From the IMG/VR virus record IMGVR_UViG_3300027780_000008: a stretch of 64,000 nucleotides of DNA, one strand, 5' to 3'. Positions 1 to 62,372 of the stretch are shown piece after piece; the first letter of the stretch is position 1, and every line of letters begins with the position of its first letter. Source of the DNA: an uncultured virus (IMG/VR IMGVR_UViG_3300027780_000008). Lineage: Duplodnaviria > Heunggongvirae > Uroviricota > Caudoviricetes. A program made the translations under genes and the position numbers. The notes beneath the pieces were generated by a model. The model saw nothing but the letters and a program-made list of their open reading frames with translations, was not told the origin of the DNA and made no database searches.

Positions 1-336
1 TTTAGTAAATTTCTTTTCAATATCAAAAACATAATCACCAGAGTAACCTCTATATAATGGAGAATAAACAGTTTCACCTAAATGAGATCTATTAAATATA
101 AGGTTAATATTTGGATCACCTTTTTTATGAGCAAGTTTAGATTTCATCATTAATAAAAACATGCTTTCATAAAGTTCTTTAGAATATGTTGCATGCTTTT
201 CTTTATCATCTTTAAACGGTAATGATGAATAATGTAACTTATGAAAAACGTGATCACTCATGTTTTTAATAATTAAATCTTGCTGGGTATCTTTACCTAC
301 ATTATCGGTACCTTCTATAATAATGAATTTACTCAT
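1..336 (-). CDS. Thymidylate/dNMP kinase-like protein (runs off the window edge)
   Basis: Manual translation MSKFIIIEGTDNVGKDTQ...IFNRSHLGETVY: P-loop IEGxDxxGK and the (D/N)R motif of the TMPK family. Not in the ORF track because it is partial. Confidence 0.75.
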   Translation of the reverse strand, partial: MSKFIIIEGTDNVGKDTQQDLIIKNMSDHVFHKLHYSSLPFKDDKEKHATYSKELYESMFLLMMKSKLAHKKGDPNINLIFNRSHLGETVYSPLYRGYSGDYVFDIEKKFTK

Positions 337-27314: not shown

Positions 27315-27361
27315 GATCTATTATTGTTTTTAGTTGTTTTATATATTCAAGCTATAAGAAC

Positions 27362-27390
27362 AAAAAAGCCACTCCGAAGAGTGGCTTTTT
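27362..27390 (-). terminator. Intrinsic terminator with cUUCGg tetraloop after the major capsid gene
   Basis: Minus strand AAGCCACTC-TTCG-GAGTGGCTTTTTT. Confidence 0.92.
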
Positions 27391-27416
27391 ATATAAAATA
27401 TTACTATTGGTTCAAA

Positions 27417-43442: not shown

Positions 43443-44567
43443 TTAGAATAAGCTTGTAGTATAGATCAAGTTTCGATTAAATCCTTTAAATCCCATTGCT
43501 GTTACTACACGATTTATTGGATCTAATATTGTTTTTTCAAATTGTCTATCATGATCGATCTGTGGTGCAAACTCATAAGGATATTCTCCTGGAGCAAACG
43601 CAAATACCTCACATGATTTATCAGTTGAAAAATACATTTTACATTTTTCACCATTTCCTAAAGGTTGATATTTACCTTTAGATGTAGAATTGTTTAATAA
43701 GTAATTATGATAACCTGCAGATCTTACGCCGATTGGGCATCTTGATGCAAATTCAAAAGTTTCATAATCATTAACAATATACTTTTGATAATTATTTACT
43801 TTTCTTGAGAAACATATTTGATCTACATTTGCTAATTTAAATTGCCTTTTAATATCTTTAAGTAATGAAGCAAAATCTTTCATATCTAGTTTTTCAACAG
43901 AAAAGATGTATGTTAATAGCTCTTTTAGTTTTTCTCTAGCAAATATTGGAGTTGAAGATTGAATAATTTCAAATCCTTTAGAACTAATTTTAGATAAATC
44001 TTCATAATGAATATCTGGATCTTTCCATACAATATTTTGCATGTACTTTTTCTTTGCTAACCATATTGCATTTTTAGCAATACTTTCTAGTTCAAAAGAC
44101 AAGAAGTTTTCAGAATTATTGTCATCTGCGTATCTTTGGAGAATCTTTTCTAAATAACCATTTACTCTAACTTTATATAACTTTAAAATAAATTCTTTAT
44201 CATCTCCGTCAAAACCTTCTGATTTTGCTATTACTTCATCAAACTTAACATAAACTGAATCTGTATCGATATAAATACCTACTGGGTTTTCTATTCTACC
44301 AGTTACAGTAATTCCCATTTCTTTATGAGCAGCAAGATCTTTGTGCCAATATTGACTGAAGTATCTATTTAACAATTCCTCGGTATAAAGAATTGCATCT
44401 TTACCTTGTAATGTTATTGTTTCTGCAATGTCTATATTAAAGAAATAGAAATAAGGATTACCGAATGCACCATAAATAGAGTTAAGCATTAACTTAACAG
44501 CTTGTTCATAATTGTAAAACTTACTAGCTTCTTTGTTTATTTGTTGTAACTCAGTTAGTTCATTCAT
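43443..44567 (-). CDS. gp43: Family B DNA polymerase, C-terminal half (distal fingers, palm, thumb)
   Basis: Motif B KLMLNSIYGAFGN, motif C IYIDTDSVY, KKKY, KGFEII.SSTP. Confidence 0.93.
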   Translation of the reverse strand: MNELTELQQINKEASKFYNYEQAVKLMLNSIYGAFGNPYFYFFNIDIAETITLQGKDAILYTEELLNRYFSQYWHKDLAAHKEMGITVTGRIENPVGIYIDTDSVYVKFDEVIAKSEGFDGDDKEFILKLYKVRVNGYLEKILQRYADDNNSENFLSFELESIAKNAIWLAKKKYMQNIVWKDPDIHYEDLSKISSKGFEIIQSSTPIFAREKLKELLTYIFSVEKLDMKDFASLLKDIKRQFKLANVDQICFSRKVNNYQKYIVNDYETFEFASRCPIGVRSAGYHNYLLNNSTSKGKYQPLGNGEKCKMYFSTDKSCEVFAFAPGEYPYEFAPQIDHDRQFEKTILDPINRVVTAMGFKGFNRNLIYTTSLF

Positions 44568-44918: not shown

Positions 44919-45668
44919 TTAATCCTCGTCAGTAATTGCAACAGCAACAGTTAAGTGAGTATTAGTATCTAAAGATCTAAACACAACTTTATTACTACAA
45001 ACTACAACCTTATAATTTTCTTTATCTAAAAGATTAATATATTTTTTGTAGATTACAACCTTTTCTCCTACTGCATTGTCTCCTTCGTATGAATGCGCTA
45101 GAGTAGCATCGTATGATGGCCCTTGAACAGCAACACCTTTATCTGTTACAGCTAATGTAAATGTATCTTCTTCTCTTTCCAAGTTAAATAAAGATTTCAT
45201 TTTATCTACATGAGTTGTAAGAAGATCAAATTGAAATATACTTCCTTCAACACTAAATGCACGATCTGTTTCATCTTTACTCATTTCCATAAAAGATAAA
45301 GATGGATCTGCACATGCTAAATTGATCTTAAGATCAGAATTCTCAATAGTAAAATCACTTGCCATTAATTCTCCATCAATTTCAGAATATTTAATCTTTC
45401 CTTGAATATCACCATTGAAATGAGATAATGCATCTATAACTTTTGTACCATTGTAAAAACTTACCTTTACTGAATCTGTAATATCTGTATCAAAAATATC
45501 AGATGTTGGTGTTGATACAAGTTTTACTGCGTCCCTCTCAGGAAAGTATACAGATGAAACCGTTCCTTCTTGACCAATCTTCATAAATATGAATTTATCA
45601 ATTGGTAAGAGTTTTTTGACGAAGGTACTTAATTCGTAGCCATCGATCTTTTTAATTTTTGCTTCCAT
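44919..45668 (-). CDS. gp45: Sliding clamp (gp45-like)
   Basis: 249 aa, acidic, two-domain clamp-like pattern (CADPSL linker, NLL..ENYKV); replication gene context. Confidence 0.7.
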   Translation of the reverse strand: MEAKIKKIDGYELSTFVKKLLPIDKFIFMKIGQEGTVSSVYFPERDAVKLVSTPTSDIFDTDITDSVKVSFYNGTKVIDALSHFNGDIQGKIKYSEIDGELMASDFTIENSDLKINLACADPSLSFMEMSKDETDRAFSVEGSIFQFDLLTTHVDKMKSLFNLEREEDTFTLAVTDKGVAVQGPSYDATLAHSYEGDNAVGEKVVIYKKYINLLDKENYKVVVCSNKVVFRSLDTNTHLTVAVAITDED

Positions 45669-45715
45669 TAATTTTTGTATTTGTTTATTATTATATGTAA
45701 AAATTTAATTTAGTT

Positions 45716-46984
45716 TTAAAAAGTACTATTAACTTTATACTTTTTCTTTGGTGTTGCGCCAAGTTCTTCAGTTACTAATATTTTATGAGTAGTATTATCT
45801 TGCTTCATGAATTTAAAGTTTGTCATTTTAGCATTACCTTCACAAAACTTCTTAACCTCAACTGCCATATCCATTGCAGTAGTTGCTGGTACATTTTGAG
45901 CAATATGATTAACTTGCCTTGCATCTTTAATACCAAAGTCCAATGGTAATCCCATAAGATGTAACATTTCTCTAATATTTAAATACCTATTTTCCGTTGG
46001 GTGTACACCATTAAACATATTTCTACCAATAAGAGCTGAAAAGCTTTCATTAAAGAAGTGTGGAGATGCATCCCAATAACCCATCCCTTGGCCTGTTTTA
46101 AATTTTTGATGTTCTAACATATCACTAAAGGATTTTGTTGATTTTTTATTAGAAAAACCTTGCTTATGATATTTCTTATCTAACCATTGTATACATTCAT
46201 CCAATAATTCATTCTTTTCTAAGTATTGTGCAATTGTACCTTTACCAAATTTCTTAGCAAAATCAGCATGATTTAATCCTTCTTTTTCTAAAACAAATTC
46301 ATAAGGTTTATAATGATCAGTTACTTTACCCTCAACCATAAACATATCTTGTAATGTTGCATCTTCTGGTACTTCTGCAAGATAATCTATAAGATGTTTC
46401 TTTTCTCTAAACTTCCATCCTAGCATAGGTACTGTTGGAGTATTCCAAAAGAAATAAAATGTTCTTATTCTTCTTTGTGGTATTCCATGCAATTCAGTAT
46501 TAGTTTTAATTAAAGAAAAACTATAACCATATTTTTCACCGATAGCTTTAAGGTTATCAACTACACCTTCTCCCATTTTAGTAAAAAGCCCTGGTGCATT
46601 TTCTCCCCATAATACTTTAGGTTTAACATTCTCTAAAACATATTCTGCTGAATTATACATCCATTGATTTTGGACTGCGTCAGATCCTCTAGATGATGCA
46701 CTACCACTAGCAGAATTTAATTGTGACAAACCTGCACAAGGGCAAACAGAATTTACAAAATCTACTTGTTCAAATGTTTTATTAGGAATATCTAATTCTT
46801 CATGGTCTATTCTATACATAGGTACATCTGGCCAATAATCTTCTATATGACTTTCATTTGCTGCAAATGCTTCATAGCTTAAATGAAATGCTGGTAAATT
46901 ACCTGTTGCTTTATTACAACCTATTGCACTACCTCCAATTAATGGAATCATAGTACCCCATTTTAATTCTTTTTCTTTGCTCAT
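45716..46984 (-). CDS. DNA cytosine-C5 methyltransferase-fold protein (divergent)
   Basis: Motif IV CPCAGLS, motif VI ENAPGL, motif VIII PQRRIR, motif IX HPTENRYLNIRE..HLMGLP; atypical motifs I and X. Confidence 0.85.
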   Translation of the reverse strand: MSKEKELKWGTMIPLIGGSAIGCNKATGNLPAFHLSYEAFAANESHIEDYWPDVPMYRIDHEELDIPNKTFEQVDFVNSVCPCAGLSQLNSASGSASSRGSDAVQNQWMYNSAEYVLENVKPKVLWGENAPGLFTKMGEGVVDNLKAIGEKYGYSFSLIKTNTELHGIPQRRIRTFYFFWNTPTVPMLGWKFREKKHLIDYLAEVPEDATLQDMFMVEGKVTDHYKPYEFVLEKEGLNHADFAKKFGKGTIAQYLEKNELLDECIQWLDKKYHKQGFSNKKSTKSFSDMLEHQKFKTGQGMGYWDASPHFFNESFSALIGRNMFNGVHPTENRYLNIREMLHLMGLPLDFGIKDARQVNHIAQNVPATTAMDMAVEVKKFCEGNAKMTNFKFMKQDNTTHKILVTEELGATPKKKYKVNSTF

Positions 46985-48000
46985 ATTTTTACTTTTTCAA
47001 TTTCTAAATCTTCCATAAATGTGGAAGGGTTAATATTACCTTCGTTTACTTCATTTTCTAAATACACTATTGTTTCCTTTATTGTATCAGTTATATCTTT
47101 CTTAGGCTCCCATCCCATAGATTTTGCCTTTGAGATATCACCATAAGAATTTAATGCTTCCCCAGCTATAGCATCATAATGATCAAAATCAGTTGTTACA
47201 CCCATTATGTCTGCAATCATATCTTTAAGATCCATTAGGTTAGTCATTTTACCAGTTCCTAAATTAAATGTTTGGTTTGCAGTATCTTCATTTTCCATAC
47301 AAAGGATATGAAATGCATTAACATCTGATACATCAATATAATCTCTAGCTTTCATATAATCTCCAAAGACAATAGGATTACGTTCTCCCATTATTCTTAA
47401 TATAAAACCAGCAAATACTGGAGGTATAGTTCTTTCATAATCTTGTAAAGGTCCTGCTACATTGAAGTATCTCAGTGCAGTATAATTCAATCCTTTTGTT
47501 CTACTATAAGATTCTGCTAATAGAGCAAGACATGCTTTTGTAGTAGAATAAATTGTAGTAGGATCTGATTGAGTTTCATTAAATCCAGCTTTAGGCATTT
47601 TGCAATTTTCATATACAGCTGAAGTTTCACTAAAGATAATTCTTTTTACATTTGCTTTAATACAACCATTCATTACATTTATACTTCCTAAGATATTGTT
47701 ATCTACTGCTTCGTATACATTTTCATGGCAGTCATAAATAGAAACTAAACCTGCAAAATGATAAACATAGTCAGGTGCAAATTTTTCAATAATAGTTTCT
47801 ACATATTGATTTCTAATATCAACTTTATGAAAATTTGTTATTTTATCATGTACCTTAGGTATATATGTTCCATGCTCCATATTATCAATAATAGCAATAC
47901 ATTCGGCATCATGTCCTCGATTTAATAAATCATTGATGAAATTTGTTCCAACAAACCCAGCACCACCAGTGACTAGGATTTTTGTGTTTGAATTATACAT
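46981..48000 (-). CDS. NAD-dependent nucleotide-sugar epimerase/dehydratase
   Basis: VTGGAGFVG, YSTTK (YxxxK), LRYFNVAGP, RDYIDVSDV, FNLGTG. Confidence 0.93.
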   Translation of the reverse strand: MYNSNTKILVTGGAGFVGTNFINDLLNRGHDAECIAIIDNMEHGTYIPKVHDKITNFHKVDIRNQYVETIIEKFAPDYVYHFAGLVSIYDCHENVYEAVDNNILGSINVMNGCIKANVKRIIFSETSAVYENCKMPKAGFNETQSDPTTIYSTTKACLALLAESYSRTKGLNYTALRYFNVAGPLQDYERTIPPVFAGFILRIMGERNPIVFGDYMKARDYIDVSDVNAFHILCMENEDTANQTFNLGTGKMTNLMDLKDMIADIMGVTTDFDHYDAIAGEALNSYGDISKAKSMGWEPKKDITDTIKETIVYLENEVNEGNINPSTFMEDLEIEKVKI

Positions 48001-48008
48001 AGTTTATT

Positions 48009-49252
48009 TTAATTTGTTATTTTGTTATAAGCTTCCCAGATTTTATTATCTACGTGCTCTCCACTATAATAAGAATCTTTTAAATATTTTTCTTGAAGAT
48101 TATAGAATAGTTTTTTATAATGATCTGGGTTTGCATTTAAAAATTCTACTTTCTTTTTTAAATCTTCTGGAGATTTACATCTAATGAAATGACCATCGGA
48201 AATACATTAAATTCTGTATCATAAGATGGGTGTAAGAACGGTATAATACCATAGTGTAACATTTCAGCATACTTAGAAGTTACCATTCCTTCTTTAATAG
48301 GTACACAGAATGTATATTTAGTAGAAAGTAATTCATCGGTCATTGACTCAATTCTTTTTTCACCTTTAAACCATTGTGGATATTCTTTTTTTAGTTCCTC
48401 ATCCCATTTTCCATAAATATCAGTCTTTATATCATTATTTACAATATACTCTTTAACAGGATCCCATCGGTCCATTCCACCAGTTCCTTTACCTTGATTC
48501 TGTAACATCATAAATGAATTAGTCTTTTTCATTTCAAACAATTCATCAGTTTTATATCTAGTCTTATCTAAAAGAAATACAGTTTCAATACCAGAATATT
48601 CATATGTTGATGTAATTGTTTTAACATCTCTTAGTGGTGGATTACAAAAATACTGTTCTTCTTTTGTAAAATTATTTTGTGCTAAGTAATATGTTGGTCT
48701 ATTATTATTACTCCAATCTTTACAAGCTAATACATATCGGTTATCTACAAGCAAACCAACAATTGGAACTTTCTTTTCCAATTCATTCATTGCTTGTATT
48801 ATTGGAGCTGCATAATATTTAAAAAAGTCTAAAGATTTAACTTGCCCTGTTCCATCTACTTTATTAATAAATCCTGGAATGTTAACAGTACTTGATGGTC
48901 CGGTGTAAAAGAAAATAAAATCTAAATCTAATTCTTTTATAAATTTAACAGTTTCATCAGCAGATTTTCTGTTCTCCATTTTAGAATGGAACTCATGAAT
49001 ATTAACCTCAGCTGCTAATTCTGCTTTAACTGGATCTCCAAATAATGACTGAACTGCTGGTTTTTCTTTTGCTCTTACTCTTCCTAAATCATTTGGACTT
49101 AATATCCAATACTCAATATTAGGATTTCTTTTTGCAATTGCATTAATTAATTGCTTAGGTTCACAATCTCCACCGATTGCTCCCCAACTGTTTTCATTAA
49201 ACTTAATCGCTTTACCAAGTTTAAAGAAACCTACTCTTTTAACATTTTTCAT
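48009..49252 (-). CDS. GT-B-fold glycosyltransferase, interrupted by a 1-nt frameshift near 48198
   Basis: SWGAIGGD, IYGKW, TKYTFCVP, VTSKYAEMLHYGIIPFLHPSYD; the -1 frame continues DGHFIRCKSPEDLKKKVEFLNANPDHY... to a stop at 48009. Confidence 0.7.
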
Positions 49253-49957
49253 TTAACACGTTTTAATTAGATCTTCTATTACTGCTTTATCATTTTCATA
49301 TGTTAGATCATACCAACATATATTTAATTCCTCAAACTTTAAATTATTCATTGAATTAATAAGATGGGTAATTTCATATTCATTTCTATTTGACATTTTA
49401 ATACTGTCAAGATTATTAAATGCTTCTTTTGAAAATATCATATAACCACAGAAGTATCTTCCTGAAACAATTCCATGCGGTTTTTCTATAACAACATTTT
49501 CTAATATAGAAGCTAATTGTAAATTTCTTGCACGAGTTCCATAATCTTTATAAGTAACTACTGTACTATTTGGGTCATGATATTCTAATCCTATATTTCC
49601 TTGATAATAGTTATCACCAAATAAACACAAGAATGCTTCATTAAATTTACCTGACCAAACCTTTATAGCTGCACCTGGTCCATATTCATCATCCTTTTGA
49701 AATTCATAAAATATATTAATTTCTTTTTTATACTTATTTAGTTTTTCAATAATAGGGTGAGCTAGTTTTTCATTATTCTTAAAAAAGAAATCAGCTTTAC
49801 TAATTGTTACGTAACAATCTTCTATTCCATTTTCAATACAAAACTCTATACAATACTCTATTGTAGATTTTCCTAAGATAGGATCTACTAATTTATTTTT
49901 ACCGTACCTAGTTGATTTACCAGCTGCTAATATAATTGCTTTATTTACTCTTTTCAT
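49253..49957 (-). CDS. Sugar-1-phosphate nucleotidyltransferase (RmlA-like)
   Basis: AIILAAGKSTRYG.NK, LFGDN, IEKP, SNRNEYEIT, WYD. Confidence 0.88.
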   Translation of the reverse strand: MKRVNKAIILAAGKSTRYGKNKLVDPILGKSTIEYCIEFCIENGIEDCYVTISKADFFFKNNEKLAHPIIEKLNKYKKEINIFYEFQKDDEYGPGAAIKVWSGKFNEAFLCLFGDNYYQGNIGLEYHDPNSTVVTYKDYGTRARNLQLASILENVVIEKPHGIVSGRYFCGYMIFSKEAFNNLDSIKMSNRNEYEITHLINSMNNLKFEELNICWYDLTYENDKAVIEDLIKTC

Positions 49958-50700
49958 TTTGTATATTTAATTTCCAATTCATCAAATAATTCATGGCCTT
50001 TTTTAAGAAAGGTTCCTGCTAATTCATATCTTTCATTTAATTCAAAGAAAGGTACTGCTCCTAATAAATGAACAGCTAAAAAGAATTTTAATTGATATTC
50101 ATCACACCATTCATACATTATCTTTTCTGCGCCTTTGCAGAAAGTACTGTATTTTTTATTAGGGTTATTGTATATATGGGACTCATACTCCATAACAAAA
50201 GATTGCATCAATTTTCCATAATCATAATAATCCTGTTCTTCTGTACCTCTTGGATCAATAAACAAAAAATCATTATCATGTAAAATATTACTTACTGTTA
50301 AATCACCATGTACAAAACCCCATGAAGATGTAGCGTCAAACTTACCTTCATAAGTATAACCAGTCCTTAATTGTAATTTATCAAAATAAGATTGAGTTTT
50401 AACATTTGATCCTATATTATCAAATTTTCCAATAATTGATATTAAATCTTCTAATTGATCAAATGATGATGTTAAAGGTTGTTCTAATATTTTATCATAC
50501 CAAGTTGGAAATCTCTTCATTTCAAAACTGGTTTCTGATAATGGTTTAATCTCAATAAAATTAGGATGATCACAACACATTAAGAAATCCATTTGTTGTT
50601 TAAACTTTTCTGGATAATGTCCTGCTTCTTTTATAACTTTATTACCTTGGAGAAATACCTTATCTCCACTATTTCCTATTAAAATTTTACTATTATACAT
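49954..50700 (-). CDS. APH/choline kinase-like phosphotransferase
   Basis: GNSG, HGDLTVSNIL, FIDPRG, YDYGKL.QS. Confidence 0.85.
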   Translation of the reverse strand: MYNSKILIGNSGDKVFLQGNKVIKEAGHYPEKFKQQMDFLMCCDHPNFIEIKPLSETSFEMKRFPTWYDKILEQPLTSSFDQLEDLISIIGKFDNIGSNVKTQSYFDKLQLRTGYTYEGKFDATSSWGFVHGDLTVSNILHDNDFLFIDPRGTEEQDYYDYGKLMQSFVMEYESHIYNNPNKKYSTFCKGAEKIMYEWCDEYQLKFFLAVHLLGAVPFFELNERYELAGTFLKKGHELFDELEIKYTK

Positions 50701-51230
50701 TTTATTCCTAGTTTACGTGCAAAAGTTAAATCAACATCAGAATCTCCTACCATTAAGAAATCTGCAAAATCATATTGTGGAAACTTTTCCATTATTAATC
50801 GCCCCATATCTGGTGCTGGTTTTTTATTCGGTACATCTTCTCTAGTATATATGTAATCAAATAAAGAAGGATCTATTTGATGATAACTCATAATTCTATC
50901 TACATTTTCTCTAGATGAATTAGATGCTATTACTAAATTTTTAAATACTTTGCTCTTACACATATACAAAAGTAATTCATTTATCTTTGTCTTATGTAAG
51001 TTTTTTGAAAATATTTGTTTTTTGTATTTTTGTGCTAATTTACTTTCCTTAGGAGTTAATTGATATTTTTCTAATAGAACATCCATTCCATAATTAATAT
51101 CAGCAAGAATAGCTGATAGAGGTATTTCTATATTTAGAACTTTCTCTAATGCCTTTCTCCATGAATCAGCGTGAATCTCTATAGTTTTAACTAGAGTATC
51201 ATCAAAGTCTAACATTAAACATTTTTCCAT
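50679..51230 (-). CDS. HAD-family phosphatase/phosphomutase
   Basis: LDFDDTLV, ASNS, KKPAPD, MVGDSDVD. Confidence 0.9.
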   Translation of the reverse strand: MEKCLMLDFDDTLVKTIEIHADSWRKALEKVLNIEIPLSAILADINYGMDVLLEKYQLTPKESKLAQKYKKQIFSKNLHKTKINELLLYMCKSKVFKNLVIASNSSRENVDRIMSYHQIDPSLFDYIYTREDVPNKKPAPDMGRLIMEKFPQYDFADFLMVGDSDVDLTFARKLGIKCIIVKF

Positions 51231-51359
51231 ATAAATTGCGATTTATTATTATATGTAAAAATAAACAAATGTTTTAAGAGTGCTAGAGATATTTTTTAAG
51301 ACAAAAAAAGACCACCAATTAAGGTAGCCTTTTTATTTGTTAATAAAGTAATTTATATG

Positions 51360-51536
51360 TTATAGACTGTTCTTAGTCTCTTGTACATGTAATCTTACTT
51401 CTTGTGCTAGATTTTTAACATCTTGCATAGTTTTACGAATTCTTACTGCAGCAGCTTTATTTCCTTTTACATAAAACTTATCTACATCTTCAGTACACGC
51501 TTCGATTAACGCTTTAATCTCTTCAAATTTTTCCAT
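51360..51536 (-). CDS. Histone H1-like (Hc1-type) small basic protein
   Basis: Manual translation MEKFEEIKALIEACTEDVDKFYVKGNKAAAVRIRKTMQDVKNLAQEVRLHVQETKNSL; KF..GNKAA..R.RK pattern; late-type motif at 51572. Confidence 0.75.
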   Translation of the reverse strand: MEKFEEIKALIEACTEDVDKFYVKGNKAAAVRIRKTMQDVKNLAQEVRLHVQETKNSL

Positions 51537-51584: not shown

Positions 51585-52490
51585 CTAGAACTTGCCTTCA
51601 CGATTTCTGTAAAAGCTTGTTGTTTTAGGAATGTACATATAATTTTTATTCTTGTTACGAACATTGTTCATAACTCTTTTAAACATGTCCCAATCTGCTG
51701 GTAAAACTCCACCTGATCCAGTTGGAGCACCTTTTAATTTAGGAGCAGTGTTTTTCTGTTGGTCTGGATTTCTATATGTTAAATTTCCAGTTATACTTGG
51801 TCTCCACGAAACAGCCGAATGGGAAGTATCATTAGGACCATAACCTTTATTGTTTAATTTTAATTCATAATCTTTTTGCGGCTGCATAAATATTTTCTTA
51901 TCTGTATTCCTAGCAGTTACTTTCTTTTTACTTCTGGTAAATACAAAACCTAAATCAGGAAATTGAGAATATGCTTTAGCTATTAACTCTAGGTGATTAG
52001 GGGCCCATTTATCATCATGGTCTATTCTAACGATATAATCACAACCATCTTTCTTAGCCATGCTTAGTGAGTCATTAAGTGCACCACAGCCTGCAGTAAA
52101 GCGGATCTGTTTAGTAGACCATTTTTTATTATCTCTTTCACCGGGTGTTGATCTATTTTTATATTGTATTTGATTATCAGGAATAATATCTTTAATTACT
52201 GACTTAATCTCTTCATCATTATCATACTTATCAGCAGTTAAGTAAATTTTCCAATTTTTAAACTTTTGAGCTTTAACTGAATTAAGAGCTTCTTTTAATA
52301 CACCAGGAGTAGTCATATGTTCAGCTCTAGTTTTATTTGCTCTACCATCAGTCATATCATGAGTAGCCATTACTATTCCAAATTTAATGTCTTTATTAAT
52401 CTTTGATCCTAAATTCTTTTCAAGTAATATCTGAAAGTTATCAGAGCCTATAAAAGATTCTAATAAACTATATTCTTCAAATGTTATCAT
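51585..52490 (-). CDS. Family 2 (GT-A) glycosyltransferase
   Basis: IVMATH, ALNSVKAQ...NW, GALN, RIDHDDKW.PNHLE, ADWDMF.R. Confidence 0.85.
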   Translation of the reverse strand: MITFEEYSLLESFIGSDNFQILLEKNLGSKINKDIKFGIVMATHDMTDGRANKTRAEHMTTPGVLKEALNSVKAQKFKNWKIYLTADKYDNDEEIKSVIKDIIPDNQIQYKNRSTPGERDNKKWSTKQIRFTAGCGALNDSLSMAKKDGCDYIVRIDHDDKWAPNHLELIAKAYSQFPDLGFVFTRSKKKVTARNTDKKIFMQPQKDYELKLNNKGYGPNDTSHSAVSWRPSITGNLTYRNPDQQKNTAPKLKGAPTGSGGVLPADWDMFKRVMNNVRNKNKNYMYIPKTTSFYRNREGKF

Positions 52491-53602
52491 TTCTTAAAAA
52501 ATGTTTTTATTGACTTTATTATTCTTTTCATATCTTGTTTTGTTAGATCTGAGCCTGAAGGTAAACATATACCTTGTAGGAATAATAAAGAACTATTTCC
52601 ATTTATATATTTTGTATAGCTTTTCATAACTGGTTGCTCATGCATTGGCTTCCATAATCTACGAGCTTCAATGTTATCTTTTTCTAAATGAGCTATTAAA
52701 TCTTCAGGTTTATCTTCACCTTTCATTAGTGCACAAGTTAACCACATATTAGATCTATCAGTTTCTCTCTCTTCTTGAAAAGAATAGAATAAATCACCTA
52801 CTTCTTTTCTATAAATTTGATTAACTTCTCTTGTTCTTTTTATTCTTTCTTCTATATCTTCCATTTGACCTACACCGATTGCAGCAAGAACATTACTCAT
52901 TCTATAATTGTATCCTATTTCAGTATGATGATAAAAAGGTTTACTATCTTTAGCCTGTGTTGAAAGAAATTTCATATAATCGGCATGTTTTTTGTCATTG
53001 GTTACAATAACCCCACCACCGGAAGTAGATAGTAGCTTATTTCCATTAAAAGAATAAACACCAATAGGACCAAAGGTTCCTGTGTGCTTATCATTAAAAG
53101 TAGATCCCAAGCTTTCAGCGGCATCTTCAATAATAGGTATGTCATATTCATCTGATAATTTTTTAATTGCATCCATATTACAAGGTACTCCGAATATATG
53201 GACTGGTATAATTGCTTTTGGTTTTTTACCTAAGGCTGTAGAATTAAGGATTGCTTTTTCTAATAGGATAGGATCCATATTCCAACTACCTTCCTCTGAA
53301 TCAATAAAAATAGGTTCTGCTCCACAGTATATAATTGGACTAACGGTAGCAACAAATGTTAATGATTGACATATAACATAATCACCAGGCTCTACTTTTA
53401 ATGCTCTAAGTGCTAAATGAATTCCTGCTGTACATGAAGTAACAGCTACAGCATATTTAGAATTTGTATATTCTTTAACTTTTTCCTCAAACATATTTAA
53501 GTGAGGGCCTATTGGAGCAATCCAATTATCTTTAAATACATCTTTAATATATTGTAATTCCTTGCCTGACATATGAGGCGGTGATAAGTAAATCTTTTTC
53601 AT
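52487..53602 (-). CDS. DegT/DnrJ/EryC1/StrS sugar aminotransferase (PglE/EpsN-like)
   Basis: IYLSPPHM, IIEDAAESLGS, YSFNGNKLLSTSGGG, GYNYRMSNVLAAIG, R.LWKPMH.QP, CLPSGS. Confidence 0.93.
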   Translation of the reverse strand: MKKIYLSPPHMSGKELQYIKDVFKDNWIAPIGPHLNMFEEKVKEYTNSKYAVAVTSCTAGIHLALRALKVEPGDYVICQSLTFVATVSPIIYCGAEPIFIDSEEGSWNMDPILLEKAILNSTALGKKPKAIIPVHIFGVPCNMDAIKKLSDEYDIPIIEDAAESLGSTFNDKHTGTFGPIGVYSFNGNKLLSTSGGGVIVTNDKKHADYMKFLSTQAKDSKPFYHHTEIGYNYRMSNVLAAIGVGQMEDIEERIKRTREVNQIYRKEVGDLFYSFQEERETDRSNMWLTCALMKGEDKPEDLIAHLEKDNIEARRLWKPMHEQPVMKSYTKYINGNSSLLFLQGICLPSGSDLTKQDMKRIIKSIKTFFKK

Positions 53603-53603
53603 A

Positions 53604-54155
53604 TTATTTAATTTTAGCAGGATTACCGTATGCTGTTGAATTATCAGGAATATTTTTAGTTACAACTGATCCTGCACCAATCATACAATTTTTTCCAATT
53701 TTAATATAAGGTAATACTGTTGCATTAGCACCAATAAAACTACATTCGCCAACCTCAACACCACCACACAAGGTTGCATTAGGACCAATAAAAGTAAAGT
53801 CTTCCAATACACAATCATGGTCAATTGATGCTGCTGTATTAATTATACAATGTTTTCCTATTTTAGTACCAACTTGAATTACTGAACCATGTAATATTTG
53901 AGAACCTGTACCAATTGAGTCTGTATTACAAATAGCAGTATGGTGTATTACAATTTTAAATTCTTTATCTTTTAGCTTATTTGCTATTGCTTTCCTATCT
54001 TTATTATTACCTATTGCAATTATCCAAGGATCCATTACAGTGTCATCAAAATCATCATCATTATAATCTTCAACAAACTGAGGATTTTTTGTATGGTTAA
54101 CTATAGCATCTGTAACTACTCTTGCATGGCCGCCTTTTCCGTAAATATTAATCAT
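53604..54155 (-). CDS. Sugar N-acetyltransferase (PglD/NeuD-like)
   Basis: IYGKGGHARVV, IAIGNNKDR, INTAASIDHDC, hexapeptide repeats, YGNPAK; start moved to the second Met. Confidence 0.9.
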   Translation of the reverse strand: MINIYGKGGHARVVTDAIVNHTKNPQFVEDYNDDDFDDTVMDPWIIAIGNNKDRKAIANKLKDKEFKIVIHHTAICNTDSIGTGSQILHGSVIQVGTKIGKHCIINTAASIDHDCVLEDFTFIGPNATLCGGVEVGECSFIGANATVLPYIKIGKNCMIGAGSVVTKNIPDNSTAYGNPAKIK

Positions 54156-55740
54156 TTTTATCTTTATTAAATTCAAATAAACCTGCTTCCCATAATATGT
54201 CACCAAAACTTAAATGATTAAATGATTCATTAAAGTTATAATTAATAGAATCTTTTAAAGAATTATAATGATTTGCATTTAATATACCACTTGTTAATAT
54301 ATTATATAACTCATCAGCTGTTTTAAAGAAAAGCATTCCTTTCGTATCAAAAGTTTCCCATTGCTTAGTATTAGACTGCCCCCAAATAATAGGTACAGTA
54401 CCAGTTAACATACAATCTAAATGTTTTTCAGTTAAAAAATAAGGAAATTCATTTTCTACTACAATTTCATACCTATAATCTTTTAAACCATCAACCTTAC
54501 TAATTGGATTATTCCAATCAACTGTATGTTTAAGTTTAGACTTAATATGATCTCTGGTTGTGTGTCTTAATGCATGACCTTCCATGCCATAGTTCTTTTG
54601 AGACCATATAGCAGTTACATTTTTTGATTTTGGATAAACTTGCCTATCATTACTGTTAATAAATGTACGAGATCCTGCTATATAATATCTATATTTTTCT
54701 GGATATTTACCAGTACCTTTCCATGCAGGATAATGAACAAATATTAAATCAAAAAGATCTTCATTGGCTGCAATCCAATCAGTAAGAGCTATGTTAAAAG
54801 TATAAGGTTCCATTTGAACCATTACCTTATATTTATGTTTAGAATTTTTAACGATTGTTTCTAAATTATTTAATGAACCATCATAGTCAACAAAAATACC
54901 AATATCAGTAGGATCGTTTGTATATTCAATATATTTACTTGCAGTTGATGGATGTTGGCCTGCTCTTTCCTCTGGTCCAAAATTCCACTTGTCCCAGTAT
55001 AAATTAACTTTTGTTTTTTCTGATAGCATAATATCTTTAAATTTGTTTTTAATATGATTGTGTACATTTGTCCCTGAAGGGTTAGTGTGTCTTAAAATTA
55101 CTTGTCTTGGAGGGATGATCCCATCCACAGGTAATCTATTTTCTCTGGTTGGTACATCGTAATAAATACCAGCATTAAGATGCACACCATCAAGGGAATA
55201 CCAATCCCAGTTAGACGGACCATAAACTTTTGGTATATCATAATACAATGTTTTAAAAATAATATCAGTTTGAGAACACATTTGTTTTAAATAATCATTA
55301 AAAAAACAAGTTATTTTATTTCTTTCATCTACTGTTTTAAAACTTTCTCTTAATTGTACTCCTTGGCGGCCTTCATCTGGTCCTGACGCAATAGGCCCCC
55401 ATACACCTACATTATAACCTAATTTTTTTATCTTAATGATAGTTTGTAAATATCGATTTACACAGATCTCTACTGCTTCTTTATATGTAATATTATTTTT
55501 TTCTGATTGAAATCCTATATGAGATCTAATATCAATTTCACCTGGGGTAAAGAAAATATAATCATTTTTCTTATTAATATTATTATTATCTAAATAATTA
55601 ATTATTTCTGGTACTTGTTTAGTAAGATTATAGGCAAGAACTCCACCTAAATGTTTTACTTTAAATGTGTTACCAAAATCAATATGATCAAAGCATTCTG
55701 CATGACTATCACCTATAATATGTATTGTATTATTTTTCAT
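54148..55740 (-). CDS. SGNH-like domain fused to a GT10 (fucosyltransferase-like) domain
   Basis: N-terminal IIGDSH, GEIDIR.H, DGVHL; C-terminal K...L.DYRYEIVVEN...FLTEK..DC..TGTVPI.WG. Confidence 0.7.
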   Translation of the reverse strand: MKNNTIHIIGDSHAECFDHIDFGNTFKVKHLGGVLAYNLTKQVPEIINYLDNNNINKKNDYIFFTPGEIDIRSHIGFQSEKNNITYKEAVEICVNRYLQTIIKIKKLGYNVGVWGPIASGPDEGRQGVQLRESFKTVDERNKITCFFNDYLKQMCSQTDIIFKTLYYDIPKVYGPSNWDWYSLDGVHLNAGIYYDVPTRENRLPVDGIIPPRQVILRHTNPSGTNVHNHIKNKFKDIMLSEKTKVNLYWDKWNFGPEERAGQHPSTASKYIEYTNDPTDIGIFVDYDGSLNNLETIVKNSKHKYKVMVQMEPYTFNIALTDWIAANEDLFDLIFVHYPAWKGTGKYPEKYRYYIAGSRTFINSNDRQVYPKSKNVTAIWSQKNYGMEGHALRHTTRDHIKSKLKHTVDWNNPISKVDGLKDYRYEIVVENEFPYFLTEKHLDCMLTGTVPIIWGQSNTKQWETFDTKGMLFFKTADELYNILTSGILNANHYNSLKDSINYNFNESFNHLSFGDILWEAGLFEFNKDKND

Positions 55741-56794
55741 AATTTTCTCTTTTAAATTCAGGAACAATACTTTTAACTAATAAGATGATTTTATAAAAAT
55801 CATTTGACCTTAATTTTGATAATTTTTCTATTTTTGGAATTATACTTTTAAAGTCATAATCTTCATGATTTAATTTCATAATATGCTTATCATTGGTAAT
55901 TATCATATTTTCCCCATCACATAATAATTCTTCATATAATTTTTCACCAGGTCTTAAACCAATATATTTAATTTCTGCTTTACTCTCAAAGTGTTTAATT
56001 AAATTTTTTGCTAGATCATTAATAGAAACAGGTTCTCCCATATCAAATAAAAATACCTCGCCACCTTTACCTAATACACTAGCTTGTAATACCAATTGGC
56101 ATGCTTCTGGTATGGTCATAAAATATCTAATGACTTCTTTGTGAGTTACACTAACAGGACCGCCTCCTTTTATTTGTTTTATAAATGTTGGAATTACAGA
56201 ACCTTCAGATCCTAAAACATTACCAAATCTTGTAACTATAAATGATGTTGATGATTTGGTTTCTAAAAATTGAGTATATAATTCTGCTATTCTTTTAGTT
56301 GCACCCATTATGTTTGTAGGATTAACTGCTTTATCAGTTGATACCATTACAAATTTATCCACTTCATTCATGAAAGAAATATCAGCAACATTTTTTGTAC
56401 CTAATACGTTTGTTTTAATTGCTTCTATTGGATTTAACTCCATCATAGGAACATGTTTATATGCAGCTGCATGAAATACCACTTCTGGTTTAAAACTTTC
56501 AAATACTTCTTCTAATCTATACTTATCTCTTACATCTCCTATAACATATTTAATATGAGACTTAGGATAATCTTTACTAATTTCTTGTTCTAGATGAAAC
56601 ATTGATGCTTCTGCATTATCAAAGACAGTTACAGATGATGCATTAAATTTAACAAGCTGCCTTACTATTTCACTACCTATAGACCCAGCCCCACCTGTAA
56701 CCATAATACGTTTTCCATTAACAAAATCTTTAATGGTTTCAGTATCTGTAAAAATAGGTTTACGATTTAATAGCTTAGTATAGTCTAGATTCAT
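55730..56794 (-). CDS. UDP-GlcNAc 4,6-dehydratase (PglF/CapD catalytic domain)
   Basis: VTGGAGSIGSE, FHAAAYKHVP, STDKAVNPTNIMGATKR, RFGNVLGS.GSV, LRPGEKLYEEL. Confidence 0.93.
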   Translation of the reverse strand: MNLDYTKLLNRKPIFTDTETIKDFVNGKRIMVTGGAGSIGSEIVRQLVKFNASSVTVFDNAEASMFHLEQEISKDYPKSHIKYVIGDVRDKYRLEEVFESFKPEVVFHAAAYKHVPMMELNPIEAIKTNVLGTKNVADISFMNEVDKFVMVSTDKAVNPTNIMGATKRIAELYTQFLETKSSTSFIVTRFGNVLGSEGSVIPTFIKQIKGGGPVSVTHKEVIRYFMTIPEACQLVLQASVLGKGGEVFLFDMGEPVSINDLAKNLIKHFESKAEIKYIGLRPGEKLYEELLCDGENMIITNDKHIMKLNHEDYDFKSIIPKIEKLSKLRSNDFYKIILLVKSIVPEFKRENYEK

Positions 56795-57537
56795 ATAATA
56801 TTTATTTGAGACACTAACCAGTCTAATTCAACCTGGCTTTCAGAATCAGAAATTGCATTACTAGGATCAGGGTGAGTTTCAATAAATACACCATCATATT
56901 CAAATATCTTAGCTGCTTGTGCATATTGTTTTGCTAATTTGCGACTGCCTCTAGTTATACCTTCTCCAGCCATTTGAGTTGAGTGAGTACAATCTAAAAT
57001 AACCTTATCTGCAAATTCTTTCATTACATCAACTCCTCTAAAGTCTACAATTAATCTGTCATAGCCAAAATTAGAACCCCTTTCAGTTATCCACACTTCA
57101 CAATTAGGATCAACTTCTTTAATTTTTGCAACTGCGTGTTTCATTGCATCTGCAGATAACCATTGTCCTTTCTTAATATTAATTATATTAAAGTTTTTTG
57201 CACATGCAACTAAAAGATCAGTTTGTCTACATAAGAATGCTGGTATTTGAATAACATCTACTACATCCGAAAGTGGTAATGCTTGGTTAGGTTCGTGTAT
57301 ATCAGTTACAATTTTAATATTAGGATAAGCTTCTTTGATACTTTGCATAATCCTAATACCTTCATCTAAACCAGGACCTCTATCAGAATGTATAGAAGTT
57401 CTATTAGCTTTATCAAAAGAACCTTTTAAGTACCAATCTTTACCTCCCATATAACCATTTAATGTTTTGGCTACTTCTAAAAAGTTATCCTCATTTTCAA
57501 TACTACAAGGACCTAGTATATATGTATAGTTTTCCAT
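56791..57537 (-). CDS. kdsA: KDO 8-phosphate synthase (metal-dependent type)
   Basis: GPCSIE, SFDKANRTS, QIPAFLCRQTDLL, NIKKGQ, ERGSNFGY, DCTHSTQ, ETHPDP.NAISD. Confidence 0.92.
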   Translation of the reverse strand: MENYTYILGPCSIENEDNFLEVAKTLNGYMGGKDWYLKGSFDKANRTSIHSDRGPGLDEGIRIMQSIKEAYPNIKIVTDIHEPNQALPLSDVVDVIQIPAFLCRQTDLLVACAKNFNIINIKKGQWLSADAMKHAVAKIKEVDPNCEVWITERGSNFGYDRLIVDFRGVDVMKEFADKVILDCTHSTQMAGEGITRGSRKLAKQYAQAAKIFEYDGVFIETHPDPSNAISDSESQVELDWLVSQINII

Positions 57538-60437: not shown

Positions 60438-61853
60438 TTAAACTTTATCGGTATTTTTTAACTCTTGTTCTAAATCATATGCTTTTTGTTGTAACCTAAA
60501 CGACTCTTTCTTATATTCTTTTCTTTGACTATATAGTCTACTTAATACATCTTTCAGTATTGATCTCTCTGTACTATAAACAGCACCTGTTACAGATACA
60601 ATTCTATCATCACCTATTTCCTTTTCTCTATTCTCTGGTTTTACCTTTTTAATAAAACTTTCTGGTGATACATTTAATTGTCTCATAATTGAAGGATATA
60701 GAGAAGCAAAATCAAAAGCAGCTACAGCATTATGCATTCCCGTTTTTGGTTCTTTTACAAAAGCTCCTTCAAATCCTTCTCTTTTTGCAGGTCTTGCTTT
60801 TGGATCTTTTGCCATTACTAGATCTCTAGTTAAAAATTCTTTAGCTAATAGTGCTTCTGTAATTGCAACTGGTGATGCAGCTTTGAATATACTTATTTCT
60901 GTCATATGAGCAATTGTTAAAGCAATTTCCATTGTCTTAATCTTTTCATGAATTAAATAAACTAAAGCAGTATCTACAACATTATAAAATATGTACTTAG
61001 GATAATCTTTTTCAAACATATCTTGTATAGTACCTTCATATTTAATTTTACGAATTCCTACAACTGCCTCACCTACAGTATCTAATTTTAAATCTTCTTT
61101 AATATCAACCGTCCTATCCCATTTTGCATAAATATCTAAATAATCCATTACACCTACATGGCATGGAAATTCATGCTTTCCAAAAGTTCTTCCAATAGGT
61201 GATGATATAGAAGGATCAATACCTAATTTTTTACATCTATTAATAATATACTGCCAATCAAATTGAATATAATTCCAACCTGTCATCATTGAGAATTTTT
61301 TAACAAAAGTATCTAAGAAAGTATACAACATGTCATATTCATTATCAAAGCATTTAAAGATAAATGAAAATTCTTCACCTATTGCTTTAAAGTGTTCATC
61401 AATTTGTTTTTGTATTTTTAATTGTATTTTCTTTTCTAAATTTTTAGTAGCTAAAACAATACATTGTTTTTCTGGAGTTACAATACAGATTGCAGTTACT
61501 GGATTTGGTGCTTTACTTGGCTCTGGGAATGAATCAGTTACTTCTACTTCAATATCAACAAAGAATGTTCTTGGAAAGTTATAACCAAATATTAATTCTC
61601 TGTCTGAAAAGGATAATTGTTCCATGTATTCTAGAACTCTATACTTATTCAGCCATCTAGATTTTACCTTTTTAACAGGGCGGCCATCCCAGTTTTTAAT
61701 TTTAGAATCTGCCTTAGTATCGCGATCATCGCATACTTCCCAGTTAAACATATCTTCTGGTTGAAGATCATAAGTTTTAAATCTAGTTTTTCCGTCAAGA
61801 TTAAAATAAGATACCCATAATTGACGATCTTCTTGTGTTATATCTAATAGCAT
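60438..61853 (-). CDS. gp43: Family B DNA polymerase, N-terminal half (3'-5' exonuclease, motif A, first fingers helix)
   Basis: FVDIEV (ExoI), TGWN..QFDW.Y (ExoII), YNVVD (ExoIII), GAFVKEP, FDFASLYPSI..QLNVSPE. Confidence 0.93.
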   Translation of the reverse strand: MLLDITQEDRQLWVSYFNLDGKTRFKTYDLQPEDMFNWEVCDDRDTKADSKIKNWDGRPVKKVKSRWLNKYRVLEYMEQLSFSDRELIFGYNFPRTFFVDIEVEVTDSFPEPSKAPNPVTAICIVTPEKQCIVLATKNLEKKIQLKIQKQIDEHFKAIGEEFSFIFKCFDNEYDMLYTFLDTFVKKFSMMTGWNYIQFDWQYIINRCKKLGIDPSISSPIGRTFGKHEFPCHVGVMDYLDIYAKWDRTVDIKEDLKLDTVGEAVVGIRKIKYEGTIQDMFEKDYPKYIFYNVVDTALVYLIHEKIKTMEIALTIAHMTEISIFKAASPVAITEALLAKEFLTRDLVMAKDPKARPAKREGFEGAFVKEPKTGMHNAVAAFDFASLYPSIMRQLNVSPESFIKKVKPENREKEIGDDRIVSVTGAVYSTERSILKDVLSRLYSQRKEYKKESFRLQQKAYDLEQELKNTDKV

Positions 61854-61877: not shown

Positions 61878-62372
61878 TTAATAATTGTTTTCTTGCCTGT
61901 TCCAATTCTCTTCATTCTTTGAAAGATAATAATTATAGAATTCTTTAGGTGTAACCCCAACCGCTAAACCTGCATTAAATACGAAATGCATTACATCAAT
62001 AAATTCCATTTTTAATTCTTTTAAATCACCTGGTGTTAAATCAGAAAGTTTTTGTTTCCTTATCTCAGGATTTTTAGATTTCCAAGGTTTCCATGCAGCA
62101 TTACCAGCACCATCTTCGATACCTCCAACGGCATCTACCATCTCATGTAGTTCATCGATTATTGCATGATTAGTAACCATTAAAAAATCTATAACATCAC
62201 CTATACTGAATTCTGAAAAAGGTTTCTTTCCTTGCTTCTCAAAATACATACTTTGTGTTTTTTGTTGAAGATTATATAAATCCTCTAGAGAATTTTCAGT
62301 AATATCATAAAGTTTTTCTGAGTAATAATCTCTTACCTCGAGATCTTTACATTTGTTATCAGTATTTGCCAT
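61878..62372 (-). CDS. All-alpha dUTPase/dCTPase (T4 gp56-like)
   Basis: DELHE, WKPWK, EFIDVMHF, Y..KNEEN..RQ...Y. Confidence 0.85.
   Translation of the reverse strand: MANTDNKCKDLEVRDYYSEKLYDITENSLEDLYNLQQKTQSMYFEKQGKKPFSEFSIGDVIDFLMVTNHAIIDELHEMVDAVGGIEDGAGNAAWKPWKSKNPEIRKQKLSDLTPGDLKELKMEFIDVMHFVFNAGLAVGVTPKEFYNYYLSKNEENWNRQENNY

What the first reader, a model, noticed from the sequence alone, without database searches (positions are those of the whole stretch)
45716..51274. Candidate novel DNA hypermodification operon: altered-cofactor C5-MTase fold plus glycosyltransferase and sugar activation, with no TET or hydroxymethylase in view
Seen: one class-M (replication-type) promoter motif at 51249-51274 heads six abutting genes. 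They are a HAD phosphatase, an APH-like kinase, a nucleotidyltransferase, a GT-B glycosyltransferase, an NDP-sugar epimerase and a C5-MTase-fold gene, directly upstream of the sliding clamp and polymerase. The MTase keeps its catalytic motifs (PC, ENA, QxRxR). Both SAM-pocket motifs deviate: motif I reads IPLIGG rather than FxGxGG, and motif X reads HIAQNVP rather than xxGNAV. Established: phages glycosylate 5hmC that is made either by a dCMP hydroxymethylase or by C5-MTase plus TET/JBP; SAM-free C5-MTases can add aldehydes to cytosine C5 in vitro. Inference: the operon makes an unusual NDP-sugar and attaches it to a C5-modified cytosine. The MTase-fold enzyme may use a non-SAM donor or provide the acceptor hydroxyl itself. 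The missing enzyme could simply lie outside this window.
Basis: partly seen in the sequence, partly recalled or inferred. Interest (0 to 1): 0.85.

Follow-up and report, generated by a model that had tools for sequence, protein, structure and literature searches.

The report
Phage DNA sugar-coating operon, copepod-shared methylase
A marine T4-like phage carries an operon that most likely activates its own sugar and attaches it to hydroxymethylcytosine made by a classical enzyme encoded just outside the window, a variant of known phage DNA camouflage; the open puzzle is its oddly rebuilt cytosine methylase, whose close relatives also turn up in copepod transcriptomes.

Summary
The six genes are real and in conserved order (33 of 33 related loci). 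The glycosyltransferase carries a 1-base deletion that is an assembly error. The 'missing' enzyme exists. A record 99.993% identical to the window encodes a dCMP hydroxymethylase-type protein 451 bases past the left edge. The window holds part of its dNMP kinase and a dCTPase-like gene. The transferase family matches T4 beta-glucosyltransferase best. Kinase, HAD and nucleotidyltransferase parallel the published RB69/DLP3/HY126 sugar activation. So the operon most likely glycosylates pre-made 5hmC with a self-made sugar. The C5-methylase fold has intact catalytic residues and a conserved, rewritten cofactor pocket. It accompanies dCMP-type synthases (26 of 29 distant loci), not this transferase, and is not CmoX. 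Its reaction is untested; methylation of leftover cytosine is my leading guess (45%). Also seen: 50-56% identical homologues with the same pocket, some with zinc-finger tails, in copepod-labelled transcriptomes, nested beside this phage clade. The scan reported this operon before on other DNA with the same reading; the visible notes do not mention copepods.

The parts
51305..51334 (-). Terminator-like hairpin ending the upstream unit
   Evidence: 12 pairs, T tail; 6 found in the region against 1.5 in shuffles
51248..51277 (-). Promoter-like site (TTAAAA-18-TATAAT) heading the operon; the same element recurs at 45690-45719 before the clamp
   Evidence: consensus match only
50679..51230 (-). HAD phosphatase, 183 aa (DxD, KPxP, GDxxxD present); inferred sugar-bisphosphate phosphatase
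   Evidence: (PF13419 4.7e-24); role by analogy to AfhF
49954..50700 (-). APH-like kinase, 248 aa (HGDL, IDP, DYGK); weakly related to the kinase half of phage NTase-kinase fusions; inferred sugar-phosphate kinase
   Evidence: E 0.025; E 3e-7 pairwise
49253..49957 (-). Sugar-1-phosphate nucleotidyltransferase, 234 aa
   Evidence: 2ggo E 8.7e-12
48009..49252 (-). T4 beta-glucosyltransferase-like GT-B enzyme, 414 aa in relatives; the window copy is frameshifted at 48197 by an assembly error; invariant D170 in a DxR motif
46981..48000 (-). NAD-dependent NDP-sugar epimerase/dehydratase (GalE-like), 339 aa, GxxGxxG and YxxxK intact
45716..46984 (-). C5-cytosine methyltransferase fold, 422 aa, catalytic residues intact, cofactor pocket rewritten; C-terminal tail resembles the polymerase tail
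44919..45668 (-). Probable sliding clamp (by position), with its own copy of the promoter element
   Evidence: (weak, unnamed PHROG)
43443..44567 (-). C-terminal half of a split family B DNA polymerase (other half 60438-61853)
61878..62372 (-). dCTPase-like protein (T4 gp56 role inferred)
   Evidence: feature score 0.96 to dCTP pyrophosphatase clusters; no Pfam, NCBIfam or PDB hit
1..336 (-). 5' part of a 203-aa dNMP kinase; the next gene, starting 451 bases past the window edge (G001 26778-27659, minus), is the dCMP hydroxymethylase-type protein

Best explanation
The phage replaces cytosine with 5-hydroxymethylcytosine before replication (dCMP hydroxymethylase, dNMP kinase, dCTPase), as T4 does. 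The operon makes an activated sugar (kinase adds a 1-phosphate, HAD removes the distal phosphate, nucleotidyltransferase forms the NDP-sugar, epimerase changes its stereochemistry), and the BGT-like enzyme transfers it to the 5hmC hydroxyl in DNA to block host nucleases. The sugar is unknown; an arabinose-5-phosphate-derived pentose is one candidate (about 40%). The MTase fold is an accessory of hmC-type phages rather than the source of the hydroxyl. My split for its reaction: SAM-dependent methylation of leftover plain cytosine near the fork 45%; action on hmC already in DNA (removal or substitution) 25%; another C5 group or SAM-free hydroxymethylation 20%; non-catalytic base flipping 10%. 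Shown: genes, folds, motifs, gene order, linkage. Inferred: every chemical step.
For: G001 equals window 1-29086 at 99.993% and encodes a TS-fold protein whose best PDB hits are MilA and T4 dCMP hydroxymethylase (E 1e-24 to 1e-23; true thymidylate synthases 3e-12 or weaker). It has Asp at the ThyA 143, 169 and 177 positions, the published pattern of a hydroxymethylase and not of a 5hoC synthase (PMC13326640). G002 has a separate true ThyA. A 113-sequence GT profile hits T4 BGT at 2e-8 and 1e-7, and only one other PDB sequence, at 0.003. The model (pLDDT 95.5) ranks BGT first in Foldseek (ranks 1-6) and VIA (Z 22.0, rmsd 3.6, 312 aligned; next 20.3). HAD plus kinase plus NTase is the published UDP-arabinose route, and G001 has an arabinose-5-phosphate isomerase homologue (3etn E 3e-74). 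The same GT sits beside synthase, HAD and NTase-kinase in cultured phages XG4, 9183 and Planchet. For methylation by the MTase: catalytic C, E, R, R invariant where aligned; an aromatic residue after motif II and the motif III Asp are mostly kept; the same pocket occurs in copepod-labelled proteins, whose cells have no phage nucleotide pool (inference); it is the only PF00145 gene found in S-TIM5, whose DNA I recall as methylated at purine-C (paper not held).
Against: No chemistry was tested. The GT's lead over non-DNA GT-B enzymes is modest (Z 22.0 against 20.3, 12% identity), and the phage carries many other glycan genes, so the sugar module or the isomerase could feed KdsA or a surface glycan instead. 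The kinase match is weak. The dCTPase call rests on one feature search. If hmC replacement is complete, a methylase has little substrate, yet it is strictly conserved and follows the synthase in 26 of 29 distant loci, which fits a role on hmC equally well. The ribose-binding acid is Ser/Thr and the motif X Asn is Gln throughout. S-TIM5 also has a D177-type synthase three genes away, so its methylcytosine need not come from this gene.
Confidence: 0.78

Rival explanations
1. The pathway is as above, but the MTase fold does non-methyl chemistry: through its Cys-C6 adduct it acts on hmC in DNA (removes the hydroxymethyl group or swaps the hydroxyl for a nucleophile), or it adds a non-methyl group to leftover cytosine from formaldehyde or an altered adenosyl cofactor.
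For: Three cofactor-contact sites are changed and fixed: motif I IPLxGG, Ser/Thr at the ribose-binding acid, Gln at the position where CmoX has its donor-selecting Arg. The family follows dCMP-type synthases across lineages whose tailoring enzymes differ: BGT-like, AGT-like, or 5-hmdU-kinase-like with inositol synthase. SAM-free aldehyde addition and hydroxymethyl removal by C5-MTases are recalled; one search found no paper on them.
Against: Copepod-labelled homologues and a prophage in a genome with no PF00303 hit (L114) keep the pocket motifs that could be aligned, without a synthase. S-TIM5 purine-C methylation (recalled) has no other candidate C5-MTase. The GT module occurs without the gene.
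Confidence: 0.4
2. One reading: the MTase fold is the only source of the acceptor hydroxyl and the six genes are a self-sufficient new pathway.
For: Tight, conserved operon; no TET/JBP hit in 5 records, though that search had no positive control.
Against: Hydroxymethylase-type gene, kinase and dCTPase-like gene in the same phage; GT module without MTase in two complete genomes; MTase without this GT in a complete record G017 and in S-TIM5.
Confidence: 0.07
3. The sugar genes and the GT decorate virion proteins or the host surface, and the MTase is an independent orphan methylase placed beside them.
For: The phage has PglF/DegT/PglD-like genes, GT2, KdsA and many LPS-type transferases. Those upstream genes vary between relatives.
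Against: T4 BGT is the top sequence and fold match. The six-gene block is constant while the other glycan genes turn over. In other lineages the GT lies in one cluster with the synthase.
Confidence: 0.1
4. The synthase makes 5-hydroxycytosine and the product is arabinosyl-5hoC, as in RB69, DLP3 and HY126.
For: Analogous sugar-activation trio and an A5P isomerase homologue.
Against: The D169N signature is absent; HY126 synthase entries match far more weakly (9iqu, 9iqc E 1e-7; I take these to be the HY126 enzyme, the call names them only thymidylate synthase) than T4 gp42 (1e-23); the HY126 transferase ranks low.
Confidence: 0.05

Closest known systems
T4 glucosyl-5hmC system (gp42 dCMP hydroxymethylase, gp1 kinase, gp56 dCTPase, beta-glucosyltransferase)
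   Same: Hydroxymethylase-type synthase, dNMP kinase, dCTPase-like gene and BGT-fold transferase with a DxR acid.
   Different: Own kinase, HAD, NTase and epimerase instead of host UDP-glucose; GT only 11-13% identical to BGT; added C5-MTase fold; synthase about 46 kb from the operon.
Arabinosyl-5-hydroxycytosine pathways of RB69, DLP3, HY126 (PMC13326640)
   Same: HAD, APH-like kinase, nucleotidyltransferase and A5P isomerase logic for a self-made NDP-sugar.
   Different: Synthase lacks D169N, so hmC rather than hoC; kinase and NTase are separate genes; extra epimerase; BGT-like transferase; MTase fold.
Phage C5-MT + TET/5mYOX + GT clusters (PMC8256090; bioRxiv 2023.12.21.572611)
   Same: C5-MT, GT-B and epimerase clustered; the latter paper also lists ThyS-linked GT-B clusters near methyltransferases, clamp, epimerase and APH in bulk counts.
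   Different: No TET/JBP found (inconclusive search); hmC comes from a synthase; MTase pocket rewritten.
CmoX cytosine C5-carboxymethyltransferase (PDB 8yf3, PMC12783734)
   Same: Phage C5-MTase fold; tied for top structural match (Z 24.4, rmsd 3.4, 286 aligned); precedent for a changed donor.
   Different: Gln, not Arg, at the HhaI N304 position; no SPPC motif; CmoX keeps the ribose-binding Glu.
Cultured phages Pseudoalteromonas XG4, Enterococcus 9183/Planchet/TJE4, cyanophage S-TIM5
   Same: XG4 has synthase, HAD, NTase-kinase, this GT, this MTase and the dCTPase-like gene in one cluster; 9183 has all but the MTase (with a gene annotated as dUTPase); S-TIM5 has the MTase and a D177 synthase.
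   Different: 28-34% identity; I found no chemical analysis of the modified base for XG4 or 9183 (for 9183; XG4 not searched).

Membership tests
dCMP hydroxymethylase (T4 gp42 type), gene in G001 | TS fold with catalytic Cys and Asp at ThyA 177 | tested here: met
   criterion from PMC13326640
dCMP hydroxymethylase (T4 gp42 type), gene in G001 | Acid at ThyA 143 (non-methyl product) and Asp kept at 169 (not 5hoC synthase) | tested here: met
   KDFVC and RSND; criteria
dCMP hydroxymethylase (T4 gp42 type), gene in G001 | Makes 5hmdCMP | not testable with these tools
   needs LC-MS
T4 beta-glucosyltransferase-like DNA GT | GT-B fold closest to T4 BGT | tested here: met
T4 beta-glucosyltransferase-like DNA GT | Catalytic Asp equivalent to D100 | tested here: inconclusive
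   D170 invariant in 113 of 113 rows, in a DxR motif like BGT D100-x-R102; the HMMER alignment is out of register there and no residue-level superposition was seen
T4 beta-glucosyltransferase-like DNA GT | Transfers glucose from UDP-glucose to hmC-DNA | not testable with these tools
   donor probably differs
Canonical C5-cytosine MTase (PF00145) | Fold and catalytic motifs IV, VI, VIII | tested here: met
Canonical C5-cytosine MTase (PF00145) | SAM motifs FxGxGG, acidic motif II, GN motif X | tested here: not met
   IPLxGG, Ser/Thr36, A/C/S-Q-N-V-P across 120 rows; motif X register; motif I and II registers inferred from recalled consensus
Canonical C5-cytosine MTase (PF00145) | SAM-dependent 5mC formation | not testable with these tools
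   only the recalled S-TIM5 phenotype bears on it
CmoX carboxymethyltransferase | Arg at the HhaI N304 position and SPPC motif | tested here: not met
   Q363 in 69 of 69 phage/other rows; VCPC
CmoX carboxymethyltransferase | Linked CmoA | not tested
   no dedicated search; Pfam scans show only generic class I methyltransferases
C5-MT + TET hypermodification clusters | TET/JBP gene in the cluster or genome | tested here: inconclusive
   0 of 5 records, no control rang, records partial; none among 118 G002 and 39 G001 ORFs scanned; two generic 2OG-Fe(II) genes in G002
Arabinosyl-5hoC pathway | D169N synthase | tested here: not met
Arabinosyl-5hoC pathway | HAD, kinase, NTase and A5P isomerase | tested here: met
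   the isomerase lies in another cluster and may serve KdsA

The most novel reading that the evidence does not exclude
The IPLxGG/QNVP family is an undescribed class of cytosine-modifying enzyme with a rebuilt cofactor pocket. It edits or completes hmC DNA at the replication fork in many phage lineages, and it passed from a phage close to this clade into calanoid copepods. There it expanded, gained zinc-finger or CXXC tails, and may stand in for the DNMT3 that calanoids are reported to lack, which would explain their extreme CpG depletion.
Probability: 0.2. Interest if true: 0.88.

Novelty: new variant of a known kind. Interest (0 to 1): 0.55.

Why it matters
The operon probably adds a new sugar-on-hmC combination, in a marine phage found in runs of many studies, to a growing published catalogue: useful but incremental. 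The methylase matters more. It is an untested family (2578 hits, not all checked for the pocket) with a fixed, rewritten cofactor site, testable in three cultured phages (XG4 with the GT and MTase, 9183 without the MTase, S-TIM5 without this GT). If the copepod homologues are true animal genes, this would be a phage-to-animal transfer of a DNA-cytosine modifier and a direct candidate for de novo methylation in animals reported to lack DNMT3.

Tried and rejected
Whole genome: none held; G001 and G002 (18% and 65% complete) stood in. TET/JBP search was uninformative, no control rang. CpG-target idea: window, G001 and G002 are CpG-poor (0.34-0.42), but same-family phages with another MTase subtype are too (0.49-0.66, six loci) and other carriers are not (up to 1.09). 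C-to-T change at CpG was only slightly higher (207 of 356, 0.58) than at CA (0.50) and CC (0.51) in nine triplets. The same kind of test showed no purine-C signal in S-TIM5 against S-TIM54, so it lacks power; no conclusion drawn. My note placed N364 at HhaI N304; the alignment puts Q363 there, and the report uses that. Clamp-tail binding could not be modelled: the queue was full, so it stays untested. Kinase had no PDB or cultured-phage hit. The dCTPase-like gene had no Pfam, NCBIfam or PDB hit. The metagenome scan for copepod-type genes gave three transcript-like contigs among 80 loci; the rest I did not examine one by one, and none showed a genomic context with introns. The first careful tree did not finish. 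Literature: the S-TIM5 paper is not held and searches gave no passage on its methylation; searches listed no paper on this MTase family or a phage-derived copepod DNMT (listings only; the library lacks most subscription papers); two gave nothing useful. No supplements were read; those of the two bioRxiv papers and of PMC13326640 might list related contigs.
Full report
Setting. The window is part of a large, 30.5% GC T4-like phage with a gp23-type capsid, tail sheath and split family B polymerase. It is found in marine runs of many studies (14 of 24 listed runs hold half or more of the sampled words). An Hc1 histone-like gene lies just upstream of the operon; from recall this type is common in Bacteroidota, a weak hint at the host. 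No assembly is held.

The observation. The six ORFs are present and overlap or abut, except GT and epimerase. That gap is an artefact. The window lacks one base at 48197 against a 97% identical relative, the downstream frame carries the rest of the protein to a stop at 48009, and in all four runs laid the whole depth at that place shows the extra base. Among 80 viral loci fetched, the 33 with an MTase at least 68% identical and at least 7 kb of upstream DNA all show HAD-kinase-NTase-GT-epimerase-MTase in order, with a GT of 414-421 aa (near duplicates included, small insertions allowed). Genes further upstream vary. A terminator-like hairpin and a promoter-like site bound the block, and the same element recurs before the clamp; these are consensus matches only.

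The missing enzyme. The window ends inside a dNMP kinase gene. Record G001 matches window 1-29086 at 99.993% and continues 28 kb further. Its next gene, 451 bases past the edge, is a 293-aa TS-fold protein. Its best solved relatives are the CMP hydroxymethylase MilA and T4 dCMP hydroxymethylase. It has Asp at the positions of ThyA L143, D169 and N177. By the criteria in PMC13326640 (abstract, introduction and sections 24, 25, 27, 28, 29 read) this means dCMP substrate, non-methyl product, and not a 5-hydroxycytosine synthase. The same gene was found in 6 of the 10 records searched (G001-G005, G007); the four without it are fragments 15-25% complete. G002 has a separate true ThyA. Window 61878-62372 scores 0.96 against dCTP pyrophosphatase clusters, without support from Pfam, NCBIfam or PDB. 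TET/JBP was not found, but the search had no working control.

The transferase and sugar module. A profile of 113 GT sequences finds T4 beta-glucosyltransferase at 2e-8 and 1e-7 and one fucosyltransferase at 0.003. The model of the intact relative ranks BGT first in both fold searches, by a modest margin. D170 is invariant and sits in a DxR motif like BGT D100 (equivalence inferred). Kinase, HAD and NTase repeat the logic published for UDP-arabinose in RB69, DLP3 and HY126. G001 has a homologue of the isomerase that starts that route, but in another glycan cluster, and the window's KdsA could be its customer. The epimerase is GalE-like; epimerase-dependent phage DNA GTs are published (bioRxiv 2023.12.21.572611, passages). 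The sugar cannot be named from sequence. In cultured phages this GT lies in one cluster with the synthase, HAD and an NTase-kinase fusion (XG4; 9183 and Planchet).

The MTase fold. The model (pLDDT 90.7) is a C5-MTase; a prophage MTase, CmoX, DNMT1 and HaeIII tie at Z 24. Over 120 aligned rows the catalytic Cys, Glu and two Arg are invariant where aligned, and so are the deviations: P14, Ser/Thr36, and Q363 (Glu in 2 rows). By the HaeIII alignment Q363 stands where HhaI has N304, the site at which CmoX has its donor-selecting Arg (PMC12783734, passages). So the donor site is changed but not to the carboxy-SAM pattern. An aromatic residue after motif II and the motif III Asp are mostly kept, which suggests (inference) that an adenosyl cofactor still binds. 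The constant partner is the synthase. Of 29 loci outside the window's phage family, 25 carry a D177-type synthase within the fetched DNA (duplicates included; the profile was built from these hits, the motif check is separate). L095 adds one that my ORF filter hid, L110's genome bin has one on another contig, L108 ends just after the MTase, and L114's genome has none. Seven loci of the window's own family with other MTase subtypes were left out of this count; of three records searched, one has the synthase. Tailoring partners change: BGT-like, AGT-like, or 5-hmdU-kinase-like with inositol synthase. Two complete Enterococcus phages have the GT module without the MTase; a complete record and S-TIM5 have the MTase without this GT. 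The MTase is therefore neither required for this glycosylation scheme nor its hydroxyl source. Its tail (KVNSTF) resembles the polymerase tail (YTTSLF); 9 of 64 minus-strand ORFs end in Phe, and binding was not tested. The lead came from note e1-6059613.

Eukaryote-labelled homologues. The homologue search returned many 570-710 aa proteins at 46-56% identity. Two clusters are labelled Neocalanus flemingeri transcriptome, with 6 and 4 members. They keep the same pocket and add Cys/His tails; one has a CXXC finger. Three transcript-like contigs have single ORFs with short flanks and GC3 of 0.53-0.62 against 0.16 for the phage gene. In a 28-row maximum-likelihood tree (subset of the 120 rows; outlying phage rows such as S-TIM5 and XG4 left out; midpoint root) eight such rows form a clade (100/99) inside a 15-row group (100/99) that also holds the window clade and phage L082; a 120-row FastTree agrees. 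This fits phage-to-copepod transfer but does not prove it: no genomic contig with introns was seen, and no clade test with a root was run. Calanoids are reported to lack DNMT3 (PMC8821070, passages), and one has extreme CpG depletion with DNMT1 and DNMT2 only (PMC11706791, passages); I did not show that this species has the gene. For function, the presence of the same pocket outside hmC phages favours a common cofactor and plain cytosine (inference). So does S-TIM5, where this is the only PF00145 gene and purine-C methylation is recalled from a paper not held. Against that, S-TIM5 has its own D177 synthase with Cys at 143; such enzymes can make 5mdCMP (bioRxiv 2024.12.05.627091, passages). Composition tests were inconclusive.

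Verdict. The operon is a new variant of T-even-type hmC glycosylation with RB69-type sugar activation (0.78). The MTase family is real, conserved and unexplained, and its copepod branch is the most surprising lead. At least eight earlier notes of this scan reached the same reading of the operon on other DNA; they are not independent evidence. A word search for a copepod link returned none. Other papers seen: PMC8256090 (passages), PMC10087341 (one passage), PMC10452541 (passages).

Noticed in passing
P0042, P0083, P0058, P0071; L129, L192, L194: Copepod-labelled and other transcript-like homologues of the MTase, with the same rewritten pocket and zinc-finger or CXXC tails, nested beside the window clade; possible phage-to-animal transfer.
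   Followed up: partly
L033:6763-7599 (S-TIM5): The gene annotated ThyA has Asp at position 177 and Cys at 143, so it may act on dCMP; the phage also has ThyX.
   Followed up: partly
window 51360-51536 (-): 58-aa histone H1-like Hc1 gene (PF07432, 1.8e-23) between the GT2 gene and the operon.
   Followed up: partly
window 51585-57537 (-): KdsA, PglF-like dehydratase, acetyltransferase, DegT aminotransferase and GT2: a second, variable sugar cluster; target unknown.
   Followed up: no
window 43443-44567 and 60438-61853: Family B DNA polymerase split into two genes 16 kb apart.
   Followed up: partly
L007-L024 and others, e.g. L009:11272-12288: A 330-338 aa gene without Pfam or NCBIfam hit lies between MTase and clamp in many relatives, absent from the window; it also ends in a polymerase-like tail.
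   Followed up: partly
L090, L101, L103: Two tandem MTase paralogues follow two GT-like genes (one AGT-like), beside synthase and sugar module.
   Followed up: no
L085, L093, L095, L107, L113: MTase and synthase clustered with inositol-1-phosphate synthase and, in four of the five, a 5-hmdU-kinase-like gene.
   Followed up: no
L114:3018-4229: MTase family member in a prophage of a genome with no PF00303 hit; the locus is GpC-poor (0.68).
   Followed up: partly
G001 1-28000 (L052, L053): Dense cluster of LPS-type glycosyltransferases, GDP-mannose dehydratase and an arabinose-5-phosphate isomerase homologue in the same phage.
   Followed up: partly
window 62417-63256 (-): Fpg/MutM-like DNA glycosylase gene just upstream of the dCTPase-like gene.
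   Followed up: no
window, intergenic sites such as 13138, 21455, 27348, 32851, 51580: A recurring GAATATATA element upstream of structural and other genes, distinct from the operon's promoter element.
   Followed up: no
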